From a virus: DNA of 64,000 nt. Position 1 is the first letter of the stretch. Each line of letters begins with the position of its first letter. The position numbers and the translations under genes were made by a program. The DNA lies in the IMG/VR virus record IMGVR_UViG_3300018080_005419; one strand, written 5' to 3'. The notes under the pieces are model-generated. The model worked only from the letters and a program-made list of their open reading frames with translations. It was not told the DNA's origin and did no database searches. This document shows, piece after piece, positions 3,154 through 51,633 of this stretch.

Positions 3154-6100
3154 ATGAGTCACGATCTGAAACCGCAAAGATTAATCCGCTCGAACATTAC
3201 CAAAACACATTCCGATCAAAACGCAAAACAAGTAGCAGAAGAAGTCAAGAAAGAACACCTTAACTATCTTCTAATTAAAAATGAAATGCTGATATCAATT
3301 GTCCCTGAAGCAAAAGATGACGATGGAAATGACATTGATTTCAAAAAGCAATTAAAAAGCTTATACAAAGAAACAGATCAATCCGTTTCCTTTTCTGTTT
3401 TTTGCCAGATGATGAAGTTCCGAAATATAGCCCTTCTCTATGCAAAAGGGCAAAGTAGATGGGCTGTCTCTTCGTATTTTACAGGGAATAGAAGAAAAGA
3501 TGATTATGCAAAAGATCTATCTTTATTGGATGAGGCAATCGAACTATTAGAATGTAAAAGACGCAAAAAAGCAGAAGAAGAAAACGAAGAGGAAAATGAA
3601 ACGCCCAAAAAGAAAGAAGATAATCCTTCTAATATCTCAGAAGAACAAATTATGAAGTTGTTCTATGCAGTGAATAAAAAACTAAAAGAAATAGGCTATC
3701 TTGATCGGTATAGTCATATTGAAAAACAAGAGCAATATGCCATTATCGGAGTAACATCAAGAACCGTTAAAGCCTGGGATTATGCTAATTTTGCGACAAG
3801 AAATCACTATCAATCCGTACAAAATGAATACCAAAAGAAATTAAAGGCACTCCCAGGAACCAAGAAGGATAAAGTTTGCCTTGAAAAATTCTTTGATCAT
3901 CTAAATGAAAATAATATTGCAGCAGACTGGGATAAATGGCGTCTTAAAAAGCATATTCTCCAATGTATTATTCCTGCTGCTAAAATAGGCTTAAAAGAAT
4001 TAAAACAATCATTCTATGTAGACAATAAGGGCAATAAACACAATTATTTTGTCAACGGTTTATATGAAGAAATCCTGAAACGACCATTCCTCTATAGTGC
4101 AGAAGATCCAGAAGAATCTATTTTATATCTTGGAGTTGAAGTTGCCTCCTTGCACTCGAAATTGAATCATCTACGCTCAGAAGCTAGATTCTCCTTTGAA
4201 ACTCCCGACGATATATGTAAGTATATGACTATATGCGGAGACAACTATCACAATTTTACCATGTCCGCTATTGGAGAAGATGTTGAAGATATTGAGGTCG
4301 AAGTATATGATTATAACCATTCCAAAAAATATGAAACTATGCGATTCATTAATGGAAAAAGAACTACTGATTTAAGCTTAAACTTTAAAGGCATTCCTGT
4401 GCGTTTATGTCTTGAAGGAAAAAGAAATAATTCCTATTTTGCCGATGCTATAGTATGGGAGCTTGATAATAAGGATAAGACTGGTTATTTAATCGAATAT
4501 GGAAAATCAAACAATAGGCTGTATATGTTAGTTAAAGAACCACTGATAGGCTGCCGTCGCAAATTTGGAAAAGATGTGTTGTTTGTTAGTCTTTCCGGAA
4601 CTCTTGTTAACAAATATATTGAAGATGATATTGTTTCTGCTCGATATTTAATGCAAACGGCGGCTCCTATTTTCAAAACGTCAAGAGCCAAAAAACAAGA
4701 TAAAATAGGAGATAAGTGGTTTGAACATTGCCAAGGATCAACTATTAAAATTGCTGGCATTGATATTGGAATAAACCCTATTGCTGCTATAACTGTTGCC
4801 AATGTTACTTTTGACAGAGCACTAGGGAATAAAATCAAAAACCAAAAACAAATAGTAATCGATTGTTATGCTGAAGATTATAAAATAGATCCAGTTGTCG
4901 TTAAAAGAATGGAAGACATCAGACACATCAAATATACTATCAATTCCTGGTATCATCTTGCGGATTGTTGCCGATTAAAGGCTGCTAATAAAGAATATGT
5001 AGTCAATGAAAGAAAGCAAGGATTCTTCAGAGAAAATATTGAATACCTTAAAGAAGTTGCCAAAAAAGCAATAACAGAATCTGATCAACAAATCAAAGAA
5101 CAAAAAGCTGCCTTAAAAAGATTTGATGGAGAGAAGAAGAAAGAGATACAGGCGACAATTAACGGGTTCAACCTTAAAATCAAAATCTTAAAGAAATTCG
5201 TCAGACAATCCGCTAAAAAGATTTTCGATTCCACATTAGAGACATTGGAAAAGTACGATAATAATATAGAACAGGCAAAAAGAGATAGAGAATTCGGCTT
5301 AAAAATTATTTACGACCTTATCATTAAGTATTATAAAAGATCTAAAAAAGAAAGAGAAATGAATCAGAGAATTTATGTTGACGATTATAACCAGGAAGAA
5401 ATAGACACCGAAAGAACTAAAAAAATTCGCAAAGAGACAATCACATTTTGCGACAACGATTGGAATAGCCTTACTAAACGTATTCATGATCTAGAAAAGA
5501 AGATGAAGAAAATTGGTATTAGCGAACCAGGAAGAGTTGAACAAGAAATTAACGACCGCGACTACTATAATAATATTCAAGATAACACCAAGAAAAGACA
5601 AGCCAAAATTATTGTAGATGCTTTAAAAGAAGAGGGTGTTTCTATTATTGTCGTTGAAGATCTTACAGGTGGCGGTTCTGAAAATACCAAGGAAATCAAT
5701 AAATCTTTTGATGCATTTGCTCCTATTAGATTTCTAAATGCGCTTAAAAATTGTGCCGAGACAAACGGAATACAGGTTACAGAAGTTCTGTCTCCAATGT
5801 CTTCAAAAATGGTTCCAAGTACAGGAGAAATTGGGCACCGTGACAAAAGAGATAAACAGCTATATTATAAAGATGGAGAAGAACTAAAGAGTATAGATGG
5901 AGATATTTCTGCTTCTGAAATTCTATTAAGGAGAGGTGTTTCCCGACATACAGAATTAATTGGGACTATGAATGTTGAAGATGTACTGGATAAAAACAAT
6001 AATAAAAATAAGTGTATAAAGGGATATGTCTGCAATCGATGGGGAAATATACAGAATTTCGAAAAGATCCTTAAAGAAAAAGGAATAGGAGAAAGGGAAA

Positions 6101-26731: not shown

Positions 26732-28177
26732 ATGAATGAGAACGAAAGAGAAAAACCAGATTTGTCTATTGCTGAAGTATCTCCATTGCCTCCCGAAGAT
26801 GCAATAGAAGAGTTGAGTGATGTTGCCCTTAGAATTTTGGTTGGAGCAGAAATTTCTGAAGGTCAACATTTTAATCCACGCCTTGTCAGATTGAATTTGG
26901 GAGGTATTCAGCAAGTTCTCCACATTAATGATTTAAATATTGCTAAATGGGCAGCAGATACGGCATACAGAGAACATATTACTCCTGGCAGATTAGAGTT
27001 AATGATTCGATCTTTGCCTTATATGTTAGAATGCAGAAAATGGATTAGAAAATTATTAGTTAATCATTATTCAAAACAAGATAAGGATTTAAGAGTTGTA
27101 TTTTTAAGAGGCGACAATGCAGGATGTGGTTATTGGAGAATGAAACTTCCTGGTGAATTTATCAGAGACGAAGAAAATGGTGTTTCATTACATATTTCTG
27201 ATGTTGAAATTAACTACGAAACACTTTTGCAATATGATGTAATTGTAGTTGAACGTCTTTTTGAGTTTGAGAAGTATTACATTTTAGAAACACTAAAGAA
27301 AGCCGGTAAAAAAATTGTTTATGAAATTGATGATGATGTGTTTAGTTTAGAAGCACATAATCCTGCCGCACGTTTCTATAACAGATTTGATTCTCAGCTG
27401 TGTATTCGGCATTGTTTAAATCTTGCTGATGCGGTTATGGTAACAACTGAAAGACTCGCAAAAGCATTAAACATAGAAGACAAAGCTATTATTTATCCCA
27501 ATTCTCTTGATTGGGATATGTTATTTTATTTAGGCACAAACAAAGACAAAGAAAGAACAAATAAGAGAATATTTTGGGCAGGATCCAATACACACAATGA
27601 AGATTTTAAAGTTTGTATATCTTCATTATTACAGATTATGGCTGAACGTGAAGATGTTGAATTTTGGATTGCCGGTTCTTGTCCTCCCATTATTAGAGAG
27701 ACATTTCAAGCATTTATGGACCGTTTAGTTTTGATTCCTGGTATGCATACAGAGGGTTATTTCCACTTCTTGAGGAATAATTTAGATGTAGATATTGGCA
27801 TTATTCCTTTAGCCAATAGTGTTTTCAATCATAGTAAATCTGTATGTAAAGGTCTTGAATATACACTGGCAAGAATCCCAATTATTGCCAGTGGTTTCCC
27901 TCCATATAGTGACATCTACGAGCATGGTGCGGATGCCATGCTTTGTCAGACAGAAGAAGATTGGTATAATTCAATCAATCAATTATTGGAGAATGATGCC
28001 ATGAGAGAGGAATTGATAAAAGAGGCTAGAAAAAAGGCAGCAGCTAAGTTTAATCTAAGAACAAATGCAGCAAAATTAGCTGAAGATCTCAAAATGGTTG
28101 GTGAAGATATTGTTGCTAATCGTATCGCACAAAAAAATCTCCAGCCAGAAGATCCTGAAGTTGTTCCAGTTTCATAG
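26732..28177 (+). CDS. GT-B (GT4-like) glycosyltransferase
   Basis: VYEIDDD, ADAVMVTTERLA, IFWAGSNTH, DIGIIPLANSVFNHSKS..KGLEY motifs. Confidence 0.85.
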   Translation: MNENEREKPDLSIAEVSPLPPEDAIEELSDVALRILVGAEISEGQHFNPRLVRLNLGGIQQVLHINDLNIAKWAADTAYREHITPGRLELMIRSLPYMLECRKWIRKLLVNHYSKQDKDLRVVFLRGDNAGCGYWRMKLPGEFIRDEENGVSLHISDVEINYETLLQYDVIVVERLFEFEKYYILETLKKAGKKIVYEIDDDVFSLEAHNPAARFYNRFDSQLCIRHCLNLADAVMVTTERLAKALNIEDKAIIYPNSLDWDMLFYLGTNKDKERTNKRIFWAGSNTHNEDFKVCISSLLQIMAEREDVEFWIAGSCPPIIRETFQAFMDRLVLIPGMHTEGYFHFLRNNLDVDIGIIPLANSVFNHSKSVCKGLEYTLARIPIIASGFPPYSDIYEHGADAMLCQTEEDWYNSINQLLENDAMREELIKEARKKAAAKFNLRTNAAKLAEDLKMVGEDIVANRIAQKNLQPEDPEVVPVS

Positions 28178-29921: not shown

Positions 29922-30085
29922 ATCTCCTGCTTAATTTTACCGCACAAAATTAGAAAAAGTATCATGTTTTTTGAAAATATTTTTGTAATTTCTTTTTTGA
30001 TATAGACTTAAGAAAAATACAGAAAGGAGAAAATATGTAGCAAAATCAGCTTCTCAATGAATATAATAAGACTCAAAGGAAAAAC

Positions 30086-30283
30086 ATGGGAAACAACTAT
30101 GTCCATTCTATAAAGGCTACTGAGGATGTGATTTGTCCTCATTGTGGGTATAAAAATTATCCTGGTATTGATGGATTTGATGCTTATGATGATGGTGGAG
30201 TTTGGAAAGCTTATTGTTTGAAATGTGAAAAACCATTCCATTTTGAAGAAGTTAGATGCTTTATGTCATATATTAGAGATTAG
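30086..30283 (+). CDS. Small Zn-ribbon protein
   Basis: CPHCG and CLKC motifs. Confidence 0.7.
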   Translation: MGNNYVHSIKATEDVICPHCGYKNYPGIDGFDAYDDGGVWKAYCLKCEKPFHFEEVRCFMSYIRD

Positions 30284-34071: not shown

Positions 34072-35226
34072 TTAAGCGATACTAGCTGTCCGAAAGGACA
34101 GTCTTACGGTATCTAGGCCAGCAGAAGATGCCCCTTCTGCATAAATATTAAAACTAGCGTTCCGATCTCTGTCTAATTCAGTTTTACAACTAGGGCATAT
34201 CCAACTTCTGTCTTTTAACGTTAATCCTTCATTCTTATACCCACATACATAGCATTGTTTAGTAGATGGAAAGAAGCGATTGATTTTATGCACTGTCTTA
34301 AGATATTCTTCGGCTTTAAAGCTCAAAATCTGCATAAACTGATAAAATCCTAAATCGCTTACTTTTCTTCCATATTGTTTTTGCAGCCATTTGATGTTTA
34401 AATCTTCGAAAAACATATAATCATAACTTCGAACTAAAGCTAAAGCTAGTTTAAAATGGAAATCTTTTCTTTTGTTAGTTATCTTTCTATGCATCCTAGC
34501 TAACTTCAATCTAGCTTTTTCTTTATTTCTACTTCCATCTTTCTTTTTAGACAAAGATCTGTTTAACTTCTTTATTCTTCTAATGTCCCTTTTAAAAAAC
34601 AAAGGGGATTTTATATCTTTGTAATCGCTAGATGTTAGAAAGGTTTTCAACCCAAAGTCAAATCCTGCGCTTTTACCCGTCATGAATTTGTCTTTTTCTG
34701 GGCTGTCTTCTAAGACTAACGATATACAAAGCCAAAGATCACCTAAACTATCTCTCTTTATCGTTACTGTTTTTACTTCTCCTTTCGTTTCTCTTGATTT
34801 AGAATACTTATAAATACTCTTCTTTATTTTGATTTTGTTTCCTTCCAGGAATTTATATCCTGCTTGTTTAAGCGTAAATGATTTGTATTTTTTAACCTTT
34901 TTAAACGAAGGAGGGCTACATTTTATTTTCTTTTTGTGCAGTTTAAAAAACAGCTTGTATGCTTTGTCTATACGTTCAGTTATATCTTGAACTGATTGAC
35001 TTGGAATAACCTTAAGATATTTAAATCTTTCTATATTGCTGTTTCTAAGTTTTTTAATATGCTTTTGCAGCTTGTTTTTATCAAGATATTTTCCGTAGAG
35101 TTTATAGTATTTTTTATGCAATGCTATGCAATGATTATACAAAATTCCTGTACAATCAATTGTCTGCATAAGAAAACAATTTCTCTTATGCTTATACAAT
35201 TTATATTTATACGTTCTTCTCTGCAT
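34072..35226 (-). CDS. tnpB: TnpB RNA-guided endonuclease
   Basis: HTH N-terminus, GFDFGLK, FFEDLNI, CYVCG/CPSC Zn finger, DRDRNASFNI; the three RuvC acidic residues are present. Confidence 0.96.
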   Translation of the reverse strand: MQRRTYKYKLYKHKRNCFLMQTIDCTGILYNHCIALHKKYYKLYGKYLDKNKLQKHIKKLRNSNIERFKYLKVIPSQSVQDITERIDKAYKLFFKLHKKKIKCSPPSFKKVKKYKSFTLKQAGYKFLEGNKIKIKKSIYKYSKSRETKGEVKTVTIKRDSLGDLWLCISLVLEDSPEKDKFMTGKSAGFDFGLKTFLTSSDYKDIKSPLFFKRDIRRIKKLNRSLSKKKDGSRNKEKARLKLARMHRKITNKRKDFHFKLALALVRSYDYMFFEDLNIKWLQKQYGRKVSDLGFYQFMQILSFKAEEYLKTVHKINRFFPSTKQCYVCGYKNEGLTLKDRSWICPSCKTELDRDRNASFNIYAEGASSAGLDTVRLSFRTASIA

Positions 35227-45863: not shown

Positions 45864-46043
45864 TTATTTAGAAAGGATCTCGATAGGATATGTTTTTAAG
45901 AGGCAAACTGTACAAATAGTTCCGTCTTCGCACATTTGGTCGAAAATTTCGTTGATCTTTTTCTTTGTTAATCTTTTGCAATCAAGAGGGATTGTTTCTT
46001 TGTGTCCGCATTGAAGTTTGAAAGTTATTGATTTCTGTGCCAT
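45864..46043 (-). CDS. 59-aa Zn-finger-like peptide
   Basis: Not in the track: MAQKSITFKLQCGHKE...ICTVCLLK... Confidence 0.55.
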   Translation of the reverse strand: MAQKSITFKLQCGHKETIPLDCKRLTKKKINEIFDQMCEDGTICTVCLLKTYPIEILSK

Positions 46044-46076
46044 AATAGGTTAAACTCTCTTTCTAAAAAGATAAAA

Positions 46077-46148
46077 GCGCCCGTCGTCCAATGGTTAGGG
46101 CTCAGATCTCTAAAATCTGTTATAGGAGTTCGATTCTCCTCGGGCGCA
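46077..46148 (+). tRNA. Amber suppressor tRNA (anticodon CUA)
   Basis: Cloverleaf: acceptor GCGCCCG/CGGGCGC, D arm GTCC-AATGGTTA-GGGC, anticodon stem CAGAT/ATCTG with loop CT-CTA-AA (anticodon 46110-46112), 4-nt variable loop, T arm AGGAG-TTCGATT-CTCCT, discriminator A; CCA not encoded (CTA follows). Confidence 0.9.
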
Positions 46149-46188
46149 CTAATATTATCAAAGAATCAAACTTTTTCAAATAGTTTTC

Positions 46189-46217
46189 TTGACAAACGAA
46201 GGAATATAGAGCATAAT
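46189..46217 (+). promoter_or_regulatory. Sigma70 promoter
   Basis: TTGACA, 17-bp spacer, CATAAT. Confidence 0.8.
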
Positions 46218-46222
46218 AGACA

Positions 46223-46325
46223 ATACTTGCAACTGGCTTGAATGGTAGATACGGAAGCCATAGGATATGTGACCCCGTACTATATTCTGAAAAGAACGAA
46301 TCAAGGTCATCCCCAGTGCAAGTGT
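46223..46325 (+). ncRNA. Candidate structured leader RNA of the Pth-like gene
   Basis: ATACTTGCA(A)CTGG pairs with CCAGTGCAAGTGT; inner GGCTT/AAGCC and GGAT..GACC/GGTCATCC stems; starts at the predicted TSS. Confidence 0.5.
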
Positions 46326-46342
46326 TCAGAAAAGGAAAAGAA

Positions 46343-46669
46343 ATGACCTAGGTAAAACACTGGAACTATATTCTCCTCCGTACTGATCTTCCAATAGATC
46401 AACAAATCGTCCAATCCGCCCATGCAGCTTATGAGGCGGCTTTATATTTGGACCAACCTCGCTCTCCTGTTAATTCCTTGGTTATTTGTGCTGTGCCTAA
46501 TGAAAACGCTCTGCTAAAAGAGTATGAGCGTTTGGCATCCTATAATATCGATTCAATTCTATTTCAAGAGCCAGATAGAAACAATGAAGCAACGGCATTT
46601 TGCACAGAGCCGATTTCTAAAAAGAAGAGGAAGTTATTTTCAAAATGGAAACTTTGGAAGGAGAAATGA
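46343..46669 (+). CDS. PTH2-like peptidyl-tRNA hydrolase with in-frame TAG at codon 3
   Basis: ATG ACC TAG GTA AAA CAC TGG AAC TAT ATT CTC CTC CGT ACT GAT CTT gives MT*VKHWNYILLRTDLPIDQQIVQSAHAA..LVICAVPNENAL..FQEPDRNNEATAFCTEPI; in frame with track ORF 46448..46669; the conserved N-terminal motifs lie upstream of the track start. Confidence 0.75.
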
Positions 46670-46670
46670 A

Positions 46671-46778
46671 ATGCGTTAGGCAAAAGCTCGTGGACCTCCT
46701 TTTTGGATTTCAGAAATGGCTTTAGGGCTAGTTTGTAGCAAGTTTAATTTAAGTACTTTGTTAATCTTAAACTTGTAA
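46671..46778 (+). CDS. Minigene ATG-CGT-TAG; read-through 35-aa peptide MR*AKARGPPFWISEM...
   Basis: AAGGAG RBS (46658-46663) 7 nt before the ATG; TAG at 46677-46679. Confidence 0.45.
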
Positions 46779-46842
46779 TAATTCTTAAAAACAGTTTTGT
46801 CAGAAAAAGATATACAAATTTCTGTCAAAAAGGAGAATCAAA

Positions 46843-47139
46843 ATGACTGCTATTGAGACGAAAAATGAAGTTCGCAAAGAGATTTTAGAAACAAAGGAAA
46901 AGATCAAGGCATTAGCTGCAATTCAAAAAGAAGAAAAACAACTTTTAAGAATGCCACATAATAAAATTCCAACAATAGATATTAAACTTCGTAGTGGAAA
47001 TGTTTATCAATGTGGCGGAATTGATCGTGCAGGTCGTTTAATGAGTATAACCAGAGAAAGAGCATATAAGATTACCAAACTCCATATTAAATATAATCGT
47101 ATGCGAGGAAAGCCAACAGATATGCATGAGTACAAATAA
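46843..47139 (+). CDS. Basic hypothetical phage protein
   Basis: AAGGAG RBS. Confidence 0.75.
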   Translation: MTAIETKNEVRKEILETKEKIKALAAIQKEEKQLLRMPHNKIPTIDIKLRSGNVYQCGGIDRAGRLMSITRERAYKITKLHIKYNRMRGKPTDMHEYK

Positions 47140-47975: not shown

Positions 47976-48416
47976 ATGCCAAGAAATATAATCCGATTTT
48001 ATAGACACACTCAGCCTTGTTTTTGCTTTTCGAACTTTTTTAAGTTTCCAATAGTTCTTAAAGATAAAATATGGCCTACTTCGGAACACTATTATCAAGC
48101 CCAAAAATTCACAAATACTGAATATGAAGAAAAGATCAGGCTTCTCAAAACACCAAAACAAGCAGCAAATATGGGCAGAGACAGATCCCTTCCTCTAAGA
48201 AAAGATTGGGAAGAAGTTAAAAATGAAATTATGTACGAAGCTTTAACGGCCAAATTTTCCCAATCAAAAGAATTAAAATCTATTCTTCTAGCAACAGGAA
48301 ATGCAATATTGATAGAAGACTCGCCTAAAGACTATTATTGGGGATGCGGAAAAGATAATACAGGAAAGAATATGCTTGGGAGATTGTTGATGAAAATTCG
48401 CAAACAAATGAGGTAA
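47976..48416 (+). CDS. NADAR (YbiA/DUF1768) family hydrolase
   Basis: FSNF, WPTSEHYYQAQKF, LRKDWEEVK, LIEDSPKDYYWG, GKNMLGRLLMKIR. Confidence 0.92.
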   Translation: MPRNIIRFYRHTQPCFCFSNFFKFPIVLKDKIWPTSEHYYQAQKFTNTEYEEKIRLLKTPKQAANMGRDRSLPLRKDWEEVKNEIMYEALTAKFSQSKELKSILLATGNAILIEDSPKDYYWGCGKDNTGKNMLGRLLMKIRKQMR

Positions 48417-48424
48417 CAAGTAAA

Positions 48425-48646
48425 ATGTTTAATATTAACAAAAACAAGAGAGATGGGATATTAATTTTCGTACTCGTTTTTGCATTTATTGTGATGGTTT
48501 TATTTTGCATTCATCACATAATAATATATCGCGAAAATGTAGCCAATCAAAAGAAAGTACAAGAATTAGAAATGGAACAAATGAGAATTAAATTACAACA
48601 ATTACAAGAGAAAAAATGTACCGAAACCCAGAGTAGAGAAGAGTAG
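48425..48646 (+). CDS. Single-TM membrane protein
   Basis: Hydrophobic N-terminal helix plus coiled coil. Confidence 0.7.
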   Translation: MFNINKNKRDGILIFVLVFAFIVMVLFCIHHIIIYRENVANQKKVQELEMEQMRIKLQQLQEKKCTETQSREE

Positions 48647-48854
48647 TAGGATGAGAATGGAATGCAACGGTTTTATTTAGTTTTTAAAAGAGAAAGGCAA
48701 CAGAAGTAAAATGGGTAAGACAAGAAGACATGACGAATTTTTGGAAGATGATTTTGATAACAACAGAAAAAACAAGAAAAAGAAAAATCAAACAATAAGA
48801 GAAAACAGAAAAAAAGCAAGGGAAAGAAGAGAAAGGGGTGACTATGCAACAATC

Positions 48855-49526
48855 TTAGAACAATGACTCTTGTTTATCACTAATATCGGGCGCTTCAACA
48901 ACCCAAAATGTGACATCAAGATCGTTATTCCAAGCTAAATTACTACGTCTATTTCCCGAGAATCCATAATAGGTTTTCGGGAATTTTATTAAGATAGGTG
49001 CTTCTAACTCTATTTTTATTTTTTCATTTAATCTATCTCTAAGTTGTGTATATCCTTCTCTATATGTTGGATCTTGTATTTCTTCCTGGAAATCTTTAGG
49101 ATCCTTTGTAATGTTCATAGCAGGATTGACACCAAATTTACTTATTTTTTGGAGCTTACCGTTACTTAAGAAATCAATTAATTCTTTATCTGTTTTAAAA
49201 GAATAACCCATTTTAGCAAAGAAACGCCTAGTAGGATCGTTTTCAAAATACTCACCTGCCTCATCCGCAAAATCAGGCTTTATCCACTTGATTTCTTTTT
49301 GTGGAGGATTGAGTTGATTTGAGACTTCTTTTGTTGAAACTCCATATTCTTTAGCGGCTTGTGCTATTGCTACTCCATACGGTTTACCTTTTTTTTTAAC
49401 TAAAAATCTAACTCTATCTGCTGCCTTTTCTATTTCTCTTGAGGCAGCAACAATAATACGCTTACCTGTCAAATCAGATAAGTATTGGATAGCTTCTGAT
49501 GTACTAGAAAATTTAATTTGCTGCAT
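48855..49526 (-). CDS. Tagged ParB/Srx-like protein (true start ATG 49526)
   Basis: MQQIKFSSTSEAIQYLSDLTGKRIIVAA; LEAPILI..YYGFSGNRR; ends KQESLF. Confidence 0.75.
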   Translation of the reverse strand: MQQIKFSSTSEAIQYLSDLTGKRIIVAASREIEKAADRVRFLVKKKGKPYGVAIAQAAKEYGVSTKEVSNQLNPPQKEIKWIKPDFADEAGEYFENDPTRRFFAKMGYSFKTDKELIDFLSNGKLQKISKFGVNPAMNITKDPKDFQEEIQDPTYREGYTQLRDRLNEKIKIELEAPILIKFPKTYYGFSGNRRSNLAWNNDLDVTFWVVEAPDISDKQESLF

Positions 49527-49554
49527 TTTGTATCTTTCTAAATAAACTGTATCT

Positions 49555-49570
49555 AATATTAAGAAAAGAT
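49555..49570 (-). promoter_or_regulatory. Putative late-promoter motif
   Basis: ATCTTTTCTTAATATT on the coding strand, about 30-45 nt upstream of 49526. Confidence 0.35.
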
Positions 49571-49628
49571 ATCCAGTTTTTATGAATAGTTTTTCCATTA
49601 GTAGAGAACAGATAAAGGAGGAAAGAAA

Positions 49629-50564
49629 ATGAATATATTGCAAGCTATTATTGATTTTTTCTGGATGTTTAGGAAAAAGCCAAAAGAGAGTAAACCCGAA
49701 AATAATGAAGGAGAAAATAATATGTCAGAAGAAACGAATACGGCCCCAGCTATTGTTCCGAAAAGAGAAAAAAGAGCATTGTTAGTTGGTATTAATAAAT
49801 ATAGAATTCCTGCTGCTAATTTAAATGGCTGTGTTAATGATGTAGAAGATATTTATCATCTTCTCACAACTACCTATGATTTTAAGCCAGATAATATAAG
49901 AGTAATTGTTGATGAAAGAGCCACTAAAGCAGAAATTGAAAAAAGATATAAATGGATTCTTTCTTCAACAAAAGAAAATGATGAAGCGCTTATATATCAT
50001 AGCGGACATGGAAGTCAATGGAGGGATCGTTCTGGAGATGAGCTTTCTGATAAATTAGATGAAATTTTAATAACTCATGATCATACCTGGAGAGATCCTT
50101 TAACTGATGATGTTATCGGAGAATATTTTAAGCAGTTAGTTAAAGGTGCATATCTCACAATGATAGTTGATGCCTGTCACTCTGGAACAATCACTAGATC
50201 TTTTATTGGAAACCCTGAACCATATGCTATTCGTTATTTGCAGCCTCCATTTGATATTGCAGCAAGAAGTATTGGAAGAGATATGCCTTTAAGATTTGTT
50301 GGGGCTAAAACTGGGGATGAAGAAAATCAAAGACATATTCTTTTATCTGGTTGTAAAGAAAGCGAAACAAGCAAAGAATTAAGATTAGGAACAAAAATTA
50401 GAGGAGCGTTAACCTATAATTTAACGAAACTATTAAGAGAAAATCCGAATATGACATGGAAAGAAGTACAACAAAAAATTATACCATTAGTAAAAAGACT
50501 AGATCAAGAGCCACAATTGAGAGGTATGACGGAACTTAAACAACGTAAAGTTTTTGGAGGATAA
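49629..50564 (+). CDS. Caspase-family (peptidase C14, metacaspase-like) protease
   Basis: KRALLVGINKY, LNGCVND, YHSGHGSQ (catalytic His), VDACHSG (catalytic Cys), LLSGC, GALT. Confidence 0.92.
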   Translation: MNILQAIIDFFWMFRKKPKESKPENNEGENNMSEETNTAPAIVPKREKRALLVGINKYRIPAANLNGCVNDVEDIYHLLTTTYDFKPDNIRVIVDERATKAEIEKRYKWILSSTKENDEALIYHSGHGSQWRDRSGDELSDKLDEILITHDHTWRDPLTDDVIGEYFKQLVKGAYLTMIVDACHSGTITRSFIGNPEPYAIRYLQPPFDIAARSIGRDMPLRFVGAKTGDEENQRHILLSGCKESETSKELRLGTKIRGALTYNLTKLLRENPNMTWKEVQQKIIPLVKRLDQEPQLRGMTELKQRKVFGG

Positions 50565-50569
50565 TCAAA

Positions 50570-50764
50570 ATGGCAAGTCTCAGCAATAATAATCTCTACA
50601 AAAGAGAAGGTCTTTACGGTGCTCCTCTTCCTTCTGGTTTGACCAATATGCGCTATCCCGAAAATCCTCGGGTAGTTACACCAGAAACAGCCAAGAAGGG
50701 TATTAAAGATTGGAATTCTCTATATCCTGCAGAAAATAGATCATTATTACCTTCAAGTATCTAA
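50570..50764 (+). CDS. Small hypothetical protein
   Basis: GGAGG RBS. Confidence 0.7.
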   Translation: MASLSNNNLYKREGLYGAPLPSGLTNMRYPENPRVVTPETAKKGIKDWNSLYPAENRSLLPSSI

Positions 50765-50786
50765 AAATAAAGGTATAATAATCTTA

Positions 50787-50980
50787 GACGACTGAAATGT
50801 AGGCGAGACAAATGCAACCGAATTAAGAGTATAGTATTGGAGCGGTTATTCTATATTTCAGTTGTTAAAATAAAATATTAATGTAGCGGAAAACAATGTA
50901 AGGTATCGTAATTGAAGAGAGTCGAAATCTACCGTATAGGAAACGCTTTGGCCCTACTTAAATAACTAAGTAGGGCCAAA
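50787..50980 (+). ncRNA. Candidate structured RNA / leader
   Basis: TATAAT at 50774-50779; 17-bp stem 50787-50803 with 50850-50866 (four G-U pairs); inner AACCG/CGGTT; perfect 14-bp hairpin 50947-50980. Confidence 0.45.
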
Positions 50981-50997
50981 ATGTTAAGGAGAAAGAA

Positions 50998-51633
50998 ATG
51001 AAAAAAATAATCATTATATTAACAATGTTTTTAGTTGGCTGCTTTCCTATAAAGAAAGAAAAACAAAATCAATGCTCGGCTATATTCCAAGTTTGTCATG
51101 ATCATTCAAAAGGAGTAAGTTGCGGATCTGCCTTTCTTGTTAAATATCGAAATAAAATGTTTGTTTTAACGGCTGCTCATGTTGTATATGATGGAAATAT
51201 GATATGGCTCTTAAAATATAACAATGAAGTATCACCAATCAAAATAATCAGTGTAATCAATCCAAATTTTGAAGATATAGCCATTTTGCTTGTAGATGGT
51301 ATTCCTAAGAATCATCCATATTTTGAATTGGCTTCTGCTAAAGGATTATCTATTGAAAAAGTAGAATCATATGGTTACAATAAATACTTATTTAAAAGCA
51401 AAGGGAATTTATTAGACATGCAATTTGCCACATCAGCCAAAGGACAGGCAAAAACATATTTACTAAGTGATTGTCAAATGATAGGTGGAATGTCAGGAGG
51501 TCCGTTGTTGTATGAAGGAAAGGTAATAGGAGTGAATATAGCTAAAATGGTTGATATTGAAGGATTAAGAGGCGTTCACGTAGATGTCGATAATTTTATA
51601 GACGAGTTAGATGCAATGATAGATCAATTTTAA
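50998..51633 (+). CDS. Trypsin-like serine protease lipoprotein
   Basis: Lipobox LVGC; TAAHV, DIAIL, GMSGGPL triad motifs. Confidence 0.88.
   Translation: MKKIIIILTMFLVGCFPIKKEKQNQCSAIFQVCHDHSKGVSCGSAFLVKYRNKMFVLTAAHVVYDGNMIWLLKYNNEVSPIKIISVINPNFEDIAILLVDGIPKNHPYFELASAKGLSIEKVESYGYNKYLFKSKGNLLDMQFATSAKGQAKTYLLSDCQMIGGMSGGPLLYEGKVIGVNIAKMVDIEGLRGVHVDVDNFIDELDAMIDQF

What the first reader, a model, noticed from the sequence alone, without database searches (positions are those of the whole stretch)
46077..46669. Amber-suppressor tRNA paired with a peptidyl-tRNA hydrolase gene that needs amber read-through (ATG-ACC-TAG)
Seen: a canonical cloverleaf tRNA with CUA anticodon lies about 200 nt upstream of a PTH2-like gene. 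That gene's only well-placed start (ATG 46343 after AAAGGAAAAG) is followed by TAG at codon 3. The conserved N-terminal motifs (YILLRTDL, QIVQSAHAA) lie between this TAG and the next usable start. Elsewhere in the window TAG behaves as an ordinary stop. Established: two-codon minigenes such as the lambda bar sites cause peptidyl-tRNA drop-off, sequester tRNA and are toxic unless Pth is active. Inference: without suppression the locus makes an fMet-Thr minigene product (a Pth substrate); with the phage tRNA charged it makes Pth. This would be a locus-specific translational switch tying phage tRNA availability or release-factor competition to tRNA recycling, and a strong candidate for an undescribed system.
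Basis: partly seen in the sequence, partly recalled or inferred. Interest (0 to 1): 0.93.

Follow-up and report, generated by a model that had tools for sequence, protein, structure and literature searches.

The report
Suppressor-tRNA-gated phage Pth2 operon
A large phage with the normal genetic code carries its own UAG-reading tRNA beside a tRNA-hydrolase-like gene and a tiny leader peptide that both have UAG as their third codon; dozens of phages, several lab-grown, keep this layout, so these genes are probably made only while that tRNA overrides the stop.

Summary
A canonical tRNA with a CUA anticodon lies at 46077-46149. A Pth2-fold gene at 46343-46669 starts ATG-ACC-TAG, and it has no usable start codon before the conserved core is lost. 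The rest of the window uses the standard code.

This is not a private mutation. In 58 non-redundant phage homologues, 31 carry TAG and 3 carry TGA within codons 2-9, mostly at codon 3. TAG loci have tRNA-CUA nearby and all TGA loci have tRNA-UCA (Fisher p=4e-4). Two relatives gate a partner gene with TAA and carry tRNA-UUA. Cultured phages GAP32, CBB, Yen9-04, RsoM2USA, Arash and XacN1 share the gate. Published genome papers report their suppressor tRNAs without finding targets.

New here: 1 nt after the Pth2-like stop lies a second amber-gated ORF (46671-46778). It carries an RGPP motif, and its Pro-Pro codons are a perfect 10-nt complement of the ribosome-binding site of the next gene (46843-47139). 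That gene belongs to a conserved partner family I call "X".

Best reading: a translational switch that makes these proteins only while the phage tRNA reads the stop. Nothing is experimental. This scan has already noted the same module on many other genomes. I found no published description.

The parts
46018..46046 (+). Promoter-like site (TTGAAA-17-CATAAT, with TG) about 30 nt upstream of the tRNA
   Evidence: Consensus scan, 10 of 12 matches. Consensus match only.
46077..46149 (+). Suppressor tRNA, anticodon CUA (reads UAG)
   Evidence: ARAGORN. Rfam tRNA 60.3 bits. Its nearest relatives among 288 tRNAs of related loci are other CUA tRNAs, at 65-76% identity.
46189..46217 (+). Promoter-like site (TTGACA-17-CATAAT, 11 of 12) ahead of the Pth2-like gene
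   Evidence: The roughly 118-nt leader RNA shows no significant fold (z -0.23).
46343..46351 (+). Gate: ATG ACC TAG, with the Shine-Dalgarno AAAGGAAAAG at 46331-46340
   Evidence: The gate is conserved as M-x(1-3)-TAG or -TGA in 34 of 58 non-redundant homologues. The next base is a purine in 33 of 34. The next codon is never ATG, GTG or TTG.
46343..46669 (+). Pth2-fold gene (108 codons including the UAG; stop TGA 46667-46669)
   Evidence: AF2 model with pLDDT 94.2. Foldseek TM 0.76-0.81 to the Pth2 structures 2zv3, 1q7s, 3erj and 1xty. The family profile hits PDB Pth2 chains at E about 1e-6. 29 of 47 relatives hit Pfam PTH2.
46671..46778 (+). Second amber-gated ORF (leader): ATG CGT TAG, then 32 codons, with R-G-P-P at 46689-46700. 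Its SD (GGAG, 46660-46663) lies inside the Pth2-like gene's 3' end.
   Evidence: Sequence. Analogous gated leaders with a Pro-Pro motif occur in at least 12 related lineages. Enrichment near the Pth2-like gene is 14 of 45 against 7 of 173 elsewhere in the same loci, p=1.6e-6.
46696..46705 (+). Anti-SD arm (CUCCUUUUUG) inside the leader's Pro-Pro-Phe-Trp codons
   Evidence: Perfect 10-nt complement of 46826-46835. Duplex -14.5 kcal/mol, and present in the MFE fold.
46826..46835 (+). Shine-Dalgarno region of gene X (CAAAAAGGAG), the pairing partner of 46696-46705
46843..47139 (+). Gene X: 98-aa conserved partner of unknown function (motif H-I-x-Y-x-x-hydrophobic-R-G-K/R)
   Evidence: A profile built without the window sequence finds this ORF as the only hit among 770 six-frame fragments of the window, E 8e-7. 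X lies next to, or is fused to, the Pth2-like gene in many loci. The AF2 model has pLDDT 85.8 and is a helical hairpin with a beta-hairpin; it only weakly resembles prefoldin beta.

Best explanation
The window holds a self-contained, suppressor-tRNA-gated translation module of a large phage that otherwise uses the standard code.

Shown from sequence and comparison:
- The phage encodes a tRNA-CUA.
- The adjacent Pth2-fold gene cannot be made in full without decoding UAG at codon 3.
- A second small ORF starting 1 nt after the Pth2-like stop also has UAG at codon 3.
- The stop type and the suppressor anticodon co-vary across phages.

Inferred mechanism:
1. While the tRNA is absent, uncharged or outcompeted by RF1, ribosomes end after two codons and neither protein is made.
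2. Once the tRNA is active, the Pth2-like protein is produced in proportion to read-through.
3. Ribosomes that pass the leader's UAG reach the RGPP codons and probably pause there.
4. This melts the 10-bp helix that hides the ribosome-binding site of gene X, which switches X on.
5. Placing the gate at codon 3 makes failed attempts cheap. Very short nascent chains are also poor release-factor substrates (from memory), which should favour the tRNA.

Function (least certain): the Pth2-like enzyme, with X and in other phages an HD-domain protein, acts on ester-linked tRNA species that arise when stops are read through. Alternatively it acts on the suppressor tRNA itself. In either case its dose tracks suppression.
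For: - Anatomy of the locus.
- The window uses the standard code.
- 31 TAG-gated and 3 TGA-gated homologues among 58 non-redundant ones. tRNA-CUA lies within 6 kb in 22 of 31 TAG loci, and tRNA-UCA in 3 of 3 TGA loci with no cross-matches (p=4e-4). The gate sits at codon 3 in 23 of 34.
- L086 (TGA gates, two tRNA-UCA) and L087 (TAG gates, tRNA-CUA) have Pth2-like proteins 77% identical, so the stops and the anticodon switched together.
- L070 and L083 gate the leader-X frame with TAA and carry tRNA-UUA.
- Cultured phages carry the gate: GAP32, Yen9-04 and RsoM2USA, Arash and XacN1. Each examined has a tRNA-CUA (PMC5852040).
- In the whole GAP32 genome, an early-stop scan returns only two loci, both TAG: the Pth2-like gene and a gated GPP-leader fused to X.
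- In lineages whose Pth2-like gene has no internal stop, a gated Pro-Pro leader sits directly upstream of it, or of X fused to it.
- Leader enrichment: p=1.6e-6.
- Anti-SD to SD complementarity in the window.
- Context: gate stops are followed by A or G in 33 of 34 loci, whereas genuine TAG stops in the window are followed by T in 9 of 19.
Against: - Nothing is experimental. It is unknown whether the tRNA is expressed or charged, with which amino acid, or how efficiently it reads UAG.
- 17% of the window's genes end in TAG and show no excess of back-up stops, so strong suppression should be costly.
- 9 of 31 TAG-gated loci show no tRNA-CUA within 6 kb. In RsoM2USA it lies 13 kb away, so absence in those loci is not shown either.
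- The catalytic Lys of canonical Pth2 aligns with an invariant Gln, so hydrolase activity is uncertain.
- The leader-to-X RNA as a whole does not fold better than shuffles (z -0.64).
- CCUCC from Pro-Pro codons will pair with any SD, so the anti-SD idea rests mainly on the five extra matched bases in this window. Pairing is weak in L009 and L055.
- Only 64 kb of a roughly 212-kb genome was seen.
Confidence: 0.72

Rival explanations
1. First reader's version. The two-codon ORF (fMet-Thr-stop) is itself functional as a bar-like minigene. Unsuppressed ribosomes drop dipeptidyl-tRNA, a Pth substrate, so the locus couples tRNA sequestration to production of its own hydrolase.
For: The form fits: a strong SD, two sense codons and a stop in 23 of 34 gated homologues. 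The downstream leader with Pro-Pro motifs would also yield short stalled peptidyl-tRNAs. That short ORFs are prone to drop-off is established knowledge (bar minigenes, from memory).
Against: The last sense codon is not conserved: 17 different codons in 34 loci. Gates also occur at codons 4-9 and inside the protein. Some lineages have no gate in the Pth2-like gene at all. The canonical catalytic Lys is absent. No data on toxicity or drop-off exist.
Confidence: 0.12
2. The phage is partly TAG-recoded (code-15-like), as in crAss-like or Lak phages. The tRNA exists to read many in-frame TAGs in late genes outside this window, and the Pth2-like gene is just one recoded gene among many.
For: Phage suppressor tRNAs and block-wise recoding of late genes are documented (bioRxiv 10.1101/2021.08.26.457843). 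About 147 kb of this genome was not examined.
Against: The 64-kb window is standard code: 19 of 112 genes end in TAG, and reading TAG as sense adds no coverage. In the complete GAP32 genome the early-stop scan finds only module genes. XacN1's authors found no read-through targets among its annotated amber stops (PMC5852040). The gates are positionally conserved at codon 3 rather than scattered.
Confidence: 0.08
3. No suppression is needed. Translation starts after the stop at a non-canonical codon, or by re-initiation after the two-codon ORF. The mini-ORF is an ordinary upstream start-stop element and the tRNA linkage is coincidental.
For: ATT follows the stop in 9 of 34 loci. In mycobacteriophage IkeLoa the arrangement is ATG-TAG-GTG, with the SD better placed for the GTG. 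In XacN1 an ATG follows 4 codons after the TAG.
Against: In the window the next codon is GTA. Across loci it is never ATG, GTG or TTG, and it is often AAC, ACT, ACC or GTA. The SD is spaced for the upstream ATG. This reading cannot explain why the stop type tracks the neighbouring anticodon, nor the conserved internal TAGs.
Confidence: 0.05
4. Pseudogene, private nonsense mutation or assembly error.
For: Gene callers truncate the gene to 73 aa.
Against: A second assembly is identical. The stop is conserved at the same place in dozens of diverged phages. Downstream residues are invariant and the fold model is confident.
Confidence: 0.02

Closest known systems
Stop-codon recoding in phages with phage-encoded suppressor tRNAs (TAG read as Gln, 'code 15'; crAss-like, Lak and others; bioRxiv 10.1101/2021.08.26.457843)
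   Same: A phage tRNA reads a stop codon, and in-frame stops are proposed to delay or condition translation of particular genes.
   Different: Here the genome is standard code. Only two to four module genes carry the stop, and it sits at a fixed early position. The target genes lie beside the tRNA and encode tRNA-related functions rather than structural or lysis proteins. All three stop codons occur, each with a matched anticodon.
prfB (RF2) autoregulation through an in-frame UGA
   Same: An early in-frame stop makes the output of a translation-factor gene depend on the competition between termination and an alternative decoding event.
   Different: prfB escapes by a +1 frameshift and senses RF2. 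Here escape is by a dedicated suppressor tRNA. Whether there is feedback is unknown.
Lambda bar minigenes (two-codon ORFs toxic in pth-defective hosts)
   Same: A strong SD, ATG, one sense codon and a stop, with a link to peptidyl-tRNA hydrolase biology.
   Different: bar ORFs are free-standing and end in ordinary termination. Here the stop is in frame with a conserved protein and co-varies with a suppressor anticodon. No toxicity data exist.
Leader-peptide translational attenuation and RAPP/RGPP arrest peptides (ApdA, ApdP, ApcA; ermCL, secM)
   Same: A short upstream ORF carries an R-G-P-P or Pro-Pro motif, and the downstream gene's SD is base-paired with leader codons.
   Different: Entry into the stalling segment itself requires stop-codon suppression. 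The nascent chain would be only about 9 residues. The regulated gene is not a secretion or resistance gene. Stalling is untested.
Archaeal/eukaryotic Pth2 (PF01981; 2zv3, 1xty, 1q7s)
   Same: Same fold (TM 0.76-0.81), with conserved Q..HA and T-A motifs. Iyer et al. 2021 (PMC7824862) already list PTH2 in jumbo phages.
   Different: The window protein scores below the Pfam cut-off. The canonical catalytic Lys position holds an invariant Gln, and Asp is replaced by Glu (HMM alignment; the catalytic roles are from memory). That paper mentions neither the in-frame stop nor the tRNA linkage.

Membership tests
Pth2 peptidyl-tRNA hydrolase (PF01981) | Sequence match above Pfam's gathering score | tested here: not met
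   17.8 bits against a cut-off of 23 for the window protein. 29 of 47 relatives match at E<=0.01, best 7e-12. XacN1's fusion scores 25.3 bits.
Pth2 peptidyl-tRNA hydrolase (PF01981) | Pth2 alpha/beta fold | tested here: met
   Model pLDDT 94.2. Foldseek probability 1.0 and TM 0.76-0.81 to 2zv3, 1q7s, 3erj and 1xty.
Pth2 peptidyl-tRNA hydrolase (PF01981) | Catalytic Lys (GK motif) and Asp (DAG motif); their roles are recalled from S. solfataricus mutagenesis and I could not check them in the library | tested here: not met
   In the profile alignment to 2zv3 and 24bt, the Lys aligns with Q17, which is invariant in 47 sequences. The Asp aligns with E73, which is nearly invariant. This rests on an HMM alignment, not a residue-level superposition.
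Pth2 peptidyl-tRNA hydrolase (PF01981) | Hydrolysis of peptidyl-tRNA | not testable with these tools
   Needs an enzyme assay.
Nonsense suppressor tRNA | Canonical cloverleaf with an anticodon complementary to a stop, plus U33 and purine 37 | tested here: met
   The anticodon loop is CU-CUA-AA. T33, A36, A37 and A38 are invariant across 8 module suppressors.
Nonsense suppressor tRNA | Expressed, aminoacylated and able to read UAG in vivo | not testable with these tools
The amino acid is unknown. The D-arm resembles Gln/Glu tRNAs and the best non-suppressor matches are tRNA-Gln at 70-71% identity, but G1:C72 and A73 do not fit E. coli tRNA-Gln (from memory).
tRNA-Pyl (ARAGORN's label) | Atypical tRNA-Pyl architecture (short D-loop, 3-nt variable loop, long anticodon stem) and pyl genes | tested here: not met
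   It has an 8-nt D-loop and a 5-bp anticodon stem, and it matches the general tRNA model end to end. The label only reflects the CUA anticodon.
Genome-wide TAG-recoded phage (code 15) | Many genes with in-frame TAG, and coding density that rises when TAG is read as sense | tested here: not met
   Coverage is 90.7% under code 11 and 90.6% with TAG as sense. 19 of 112 genes end in TAG. Only 64 kb of about 212 kb was seen.
bar-type minigene | SD, ATG, one sense codon and a stop | tested here: met
   46331-46351.
bar-type minigene | Toxicity through peptidyl-tRNA drop-off, relieved by Pth | not testable with these tools
   Needs genetics in a pth(ts) host.
RAPP/RGPP arrest peptide or attenuator leader | R-[AG]-P-P motif in a short ORF upstream of the regulated gene | tested here: met
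   RGPP at leader codons 7-10 (46689-46700). Related loci have RGPP, GPP, KPP-stop or APP-stop.
RAPP/RGPP arrest peptide or attenuator leader | Ribosome stalling that remodels mRNA structure at the downstream SD | tested here: inconclusive
   There is a perfect 10-nt anti-SD to SD complement in the window (-14.5 kcal/mol). The whole-region fold is not better than shuffles, and pairing is weak in some relatives. Stalling needs toeprinting.

The most novel reading that the evidence does not exclude
The module is a closed homeostat for stop-codon read-through. The suppressor tRNA licenses synthesis of a Pth2-derived enzyme (Gln in place of the catalytic Lys) and its partners X and HD. These in turn act on the suppressor's own aminoacyl or peptidyl ester, or on ribosomes stalled by read-through. 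Read-through is thereby held at a set level in a cell whose other genes still need the stop. The amber-gated Pro-Pro leader with its anti-SD arm is a second, RNA-level read-out of the same signal. The design has been rebuilt for UAG, UGA and UAA.
Probability: 0.2. Interest if true: 0.92.

Novelty: new variant of a known kind. Interest (0 to 1): 0.84.

Why it matters
Genome papers on cultured jumbo phages report suppressor tRNAs whose targets could not be identified: XacN1 (PMC5852040) looked and found none, and RsoM2USA (PMC8504454) names none. This module supplies specific, conserved targets. They went unnoticed because gene callers skip a two-codon ORF.

It would be a natural example of something synthetic biologists build by hand: a gene circuit gated by a suppressor tRNA. 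It has matched versions for all three stop codons.

It ties phage control of termination to tRNA-ester metabolism. It also corrects annotations: the genes are missing, truncated or split in GAP32, Yen9-04, Serratia phage BF, the Erwinia pEa_SNUABM phages, RsoM2USA and Arash.

It is directly testable in laboratory phage-host pairs.

Tried and rejected
- Near-identity DNA search of 12 kb against cultured phages found no match. A distant search with the tRNA alone also found none.
- The word-indexed protein search returned only the window's own truncated 73-aa product.
- No whole genome is held for this window.
- The 5' leader RNA of the Pth2-like gene has no significant structure (z -0.23). Its spacer does not align with relatives.
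- Back-up stops after TAG-ending genes show no excess over other genes.
- An HD-domain partner is gated in GAP32-like and other phages, but tblastn finds none in this window.
- Function of X: no Pfam or NCBIfam hit. The Atlas gave nothing above noise. Foldseek gave only weak prefoldin-beta-like hits at E 0.3-0.5.
- The minus-strand TAG at 26768 and the plus-strand TAG at 48678 came up in the early-stop scan. I set them aside as antisense or ambiguous.
- Papers that would confirm the Pth2 catalytic residues were not in the library.
Full report

ARAGORN finds exactly one tRNA in the 64-kb window, at 46077-46149 on the + strand, with anticodon CTA. Rfam's tRNA model matches it end to end at 60.3 bits against a gathering score of 29. 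It is an ordinary class I cloverleaf whose anticodon loop reads CU-CUA-AA. ARAGORN's label 'tRNA-Pyl' reflects only the anticodon.

About 190 nt downstream, AAAGGAAAAG is followed by ATG (46343), ACC and TAG (46349). An open frame of 105 codons then runs to TGA at 46667-46669. The next canonical start is TTG at 46448. Starting there would remove the first strand and helix of the protein, including its invariant residues.

A second assembly from another record (L001) is identical over all 421 bases compared, including the tRNA and the TAG.

**2. Does the window use the standard code?**

A greedy gene set under code 11 covers 90.7% of the window. 19 of 112 genes end in TAG, several of them large. 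Reading TAG or TGA as sense adds no coverage. One of the three gaps over 250 nt is this locus. The window has no close relative among cultured phages. Its proteins are mostly novel. The contig is about 212 kb.

**3. What is the protein?**

- Pfam PTH2 scores below its cut-off for the window protein (17.8 against 23 bits).
- 29 of 47 aligned relatives match PTH2, the best at 7e-12.
- A profile of the family hits solved Pth2 chains at about 1e-6.
- An AlphaFold model (pLDDT 94.2) superposes on archaeal and human Pth2 structures with TM 0.76-0.81.

So the protein has a Pth2 fold.

In the profile alignment, the lysine of the canonical GK motif aligns with Gln17, which is invariant in all 47 family members. 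The aspartate of the DAG motif aligns with a nearly invariant Glu. I recall these two as the catalytic residues of S. solfataricus Pth2, but I could not retrieve the source. I therefore call the protein Pth2-like and treat hydrolase activity as unproven.

**4. Is the early stop a private defect?**

No. tblastn against cultured phages finds homologues mainly in jumbo phages. In many records nothing is annotated under the match, or the gene is truncated or split. Reading the DNA shows the reason:

| Phage | Start of the gene |
|---|---|
| Yersinia phage fHe-Yen9-04 | ATG TCT CAC TAG |
| Cronobacter phage GAP32 | ATG GCA CAA TAG |
| Ralstonia phage RsoM2USA | ATG TTG TAG |
| Salmonella phage Arash | ATG CTG TAG |

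A profile-guided scan of IMG/VR returned 80 loci. After reduction to 58 sequences at 85% identity or less:

- 31 have TAG and 3 have TGA within 31 residues upstream of the invariant His. In each, an SD-preceded ATG lies 1-8 codons before the stop and no usable start lies after it.
- The stop is codon 3 in 23 of these 34.
- The base after the stop is A or G in 33 of 34. Genuine TAG stops in this window are followed by T in 9 of 19.
- The codon after the stop is never ATG, GTG or TTG. This excludes simple re-initiation at an adjacent canonical start.
- Several lineages add a second in-frame TAG in one surface loop.

**5. Is the tRNA the partner?**

- Among the 31 TAG-gated loci, 22 have a tRNA-CUA within 6 kb, often within 300 nt on the same strand. 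None has only a UCA tRNA.
- All three TGA-gated loci have tRNA-UCA and none has CUA. Fisher's exact test gives p=4e-4.
- L086 and L087 encode Pth2-like proteins that are 77% identical. L086 uses TGA gates and has two tRNA-UCA. L087 uses TAG gates and has tRNA-CUA.
- In L070 and L083 the neighbouring partner frame is interrupted by TAA and the adjacent tRNA has a UUA anticodon.
- Where no suppressor lies in the flank, it can lie further away. In RsoM2USA it is 13 kb off on the same strand.
- The complete GAP32 genome has one tRNA-CUA. A genome-wide scan for 'SD-ATG, at most 9 codons, stop, long open frame without an early start' returns only two loci. Both are TAG and both are module genes.
- Even homologues without an internal stop usually have a suppressor tRNA beside them (13 of 20). 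This includes Bixzunavirus mycobacteriophages.

**6. More parts of the module**

(a) *An HD-domain protein.*
- In XacN1, Xoo-sp13 and several metagenomic phages it is fused to the N-terminus of the Pth2-like domain.
- In XacN1 the fusion is preceded by ATG AAG TAG, five codons before the annotated start.
- In GAP32-like phages it is a separate gene overlapping the Pth2-like stop. It has an in-frame TAG at codon 47, which explains why it is annotated as fragments.
- In L074, L086 and L087 it carries an early stop that matches the local suppressor.
- No HD homologue is detectable in this window.

- One base after the Pth2-like stop lies ATG CGT TAG (46671-46679). Its SD, GGAG, lies inside the Pth2-like gene. 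The stop is followed by 32 codons, of which codons 7-10 read R-G-P-P (46689-46700).
- Gated leaders of the same kind sit either just after the Pth2-like gene (L008, L009, L019, L055) or just before the operon (L038, L048, L067, L068, L077, L080, L082). They have an early TAG followed by a Pro-Pro motif a few codons later, often directly before the stop.
- Near the Pth2-like gene, 14 of 45 SD-preceded early-stop mini-ORFs contain Pro-Pro soon after the stop. Elsewhere in the same loci the count is 7 of 173, p=1.6e-6.
- In the lineages I had scored as 'ungated', this leader directly precedes the gene. The operon is still amber-dependent there, by a different route.

(c) *Gene X.*
- The ORF after the leader (46843-47139, 98 aa) belongs to a family that follows such leaders or is fused to the Pth2-like domain.
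- A profile built without the window sequence picks this ORF as the only hit in the window, at E 8e-7.
- In GAP32 the second genome-wide hit is a gated GPP leader fused in frame to X.
- X has no Pfam, NCBIfam or Atlas assignment.
- Its model is a helical hairpin with a beta-hairpin and only faintly resembles prefoldin beta.

**7. How it most likely works**

The leader's Pro-Pro-Phe-Trp codons contain CUCCUUUUUG (46696-46705). This is a perfect complement of CAAAAAGGAG (46826-46835), the ribosome-binding site of X. The duplex energy is -14.5 kcal/mol and the pairing appears in the minimum-energy fold.

A ribosome that ends at the leader's UAG (46677-46679) should stop short of this helix. A ribosome that reads through reaches the helix and probably pauses on RGPP, which would free the SD of X. 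This is the classical leader-peptide attenuation design, with suppression as the input.

Two cautions apply. The whole region folds no better than shuffles (z -0.64). CCUCC will also pair with any SD, and pairing is weak in some relatives.

For the Pth2-like gene the gate is direct: no read-through, no protein. Placing the stop at codon 3 makes failed attempts cost two residues. Release factors act poorly on very short chains (established for minigenes, from memory), which should favour the tRNA.

The output of the module would therefore report the balance between charged suppressor tRNA and RF1. What the proteins then do is inference. The recurrent fusions of Pth2-like, HD and X, and their fixed linkage to suppressor tRNAs, point to the 3'-ester chemistry of tRNAs. 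They could clear by-products of read-through or feed back on the suppressor.

Both the tRNA and the Pth2-like gene have near-consensus sigma-70-type promoter matches.

**8.

The form fits a bar-like minigene. However, the last sense codon is not conserved, the position of the gate varies, and some lineages gate through the leader instead. No result here bears on drop-off or toxicity. I keep the idea as a minor rival.

**9. Known or new?**

- Suppressor tRNAs in these phages are published, but without targets. XacN1's authors read through the 18 annotated amber stops of the genome and found nothing (PMC5852040). The RsoM2USA paper only notes the tRNA (PMC8504454).
- Iyer et al. list PTH2 in jumbo phages without mentioning a stop or a tRNA (PMC7824862).
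- Work on recoded phages does not mention a hydrolase.
- Full-text searches combining Pth2, phage, stop codon and suppressor found no paper.
- Within this scan the module has been noted many times on other genomes. Those are unchecked AI notes. Here I re-derived the gating and the stop-anticodon covariation independently.
- I add the TAA/UUA case, the whole-genome specificity test in GAP32, the XacN1 explanation, the Lys-to-Gln difference, the Pro-Pro leader statistics, the anti-SD pairing, and the assignment of 46843-47139 to family X.

**10. Verdict**

The module is a new variant of two known kinds, phage stop-codon suppression and leader-peptide control. It is well conserved, it is found in cultured phages, and it is directly testable.

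Noticed in passing
window 30035-30283: A minimal start-stop ORF (ATG TAG) with a strong SD (AAAGGAGAA) lies in frame 15 codons upstream of the normal start (ATG 30086, with its own SD) of a 65-aa zinc-ribbon-like gene that itself ends in TAG. Read-through would add an N-terminal extension. This may be a third suppressor-sensitive site or may be chance.
   Followed up: partly
L004 (GAP32) 1818-2384; L003 (Yen9-04) same coordinates: The HD-domain gene directly after the Pth2-like gene has an in-frame TAG at codon 47. In GAP32 it is annotated as separate small ORFs (GAP32_398, GAP32_399). In Yen9-04 it is also split into two ORFs (g408, g409), and the Pth2-like gene is not annotated at all.
   Followed up: yes
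L006 (XacN1) 937-960: ATG AAG TAG with a well-placed SD lies five codons upstream of the annotated start of ORF364, an HD-Pth2 fusion. This is a likely target of XacN1's two published amber-suppressor tRNAs, for which its authors found no target.
   Followed up: yes
GAP32 genome 311451-311861 (L103 11451-11861): ATG CTA TAG is followed by a GPP motif and is fused in frame to an X-family protein, immediately after a tRNA gene. It is the only other hit of the genome-wide early-stop scan.
   Followed up: partly
L070 about 5020-5466 and L083 about 4960-5430: The leader-X frame is interrupted by TAA (followed by P-R-G-P-P) and the neighbouring tRNA has a UUA anticodon. This is an ochre version of the module. 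ARAGORN reports these tRNAs as 91 nt long, so they need checking.
   Followed up: partly
L107 (Salmonella phage Arash) 2507-2581: The tRNA annotated as tRNA-Phe in the record is called with a CTA anticodon by ARAGORN. The Pth2-like gene (ATG CTG TAG) is annotated only as a 50-aa C-terminal fragment.
   Followed up: partly
L106 (Mycobacterium phage IkeLoa) 1165-1869: The Bixzunavirus 'peptidyl tRNA hydrolase' gene begins ATG-TAG-GTG, with the annotated start at the GTG, and is followed 250 nt later by tRNA(cta). The linkage is conserved but the gate is ambiguous.
   Followed up: partly
window 34072-35226 (-): A 384-aa ORF matches a PHROG transposase family strongly (phrog_506, E 2e-88). This points to a mobile element inside the phage genome.
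   Followed up: no
window 47976-51633: The neighbourhood downstream of the module encodes NADAR, caspase-like (Peptidase_C14) and trypsin-like proteins, according to precomputed Pfam hits on the identical contig L001.
   Followed up: no
window 48657-48866: ATG, six codons, TAG, ten codons, then the ATG of a 51-aa lysine/arginine-rich ORF, all in one frame. It is ambiguous and probably an ordinary start at 48711.
   Followed up: partly
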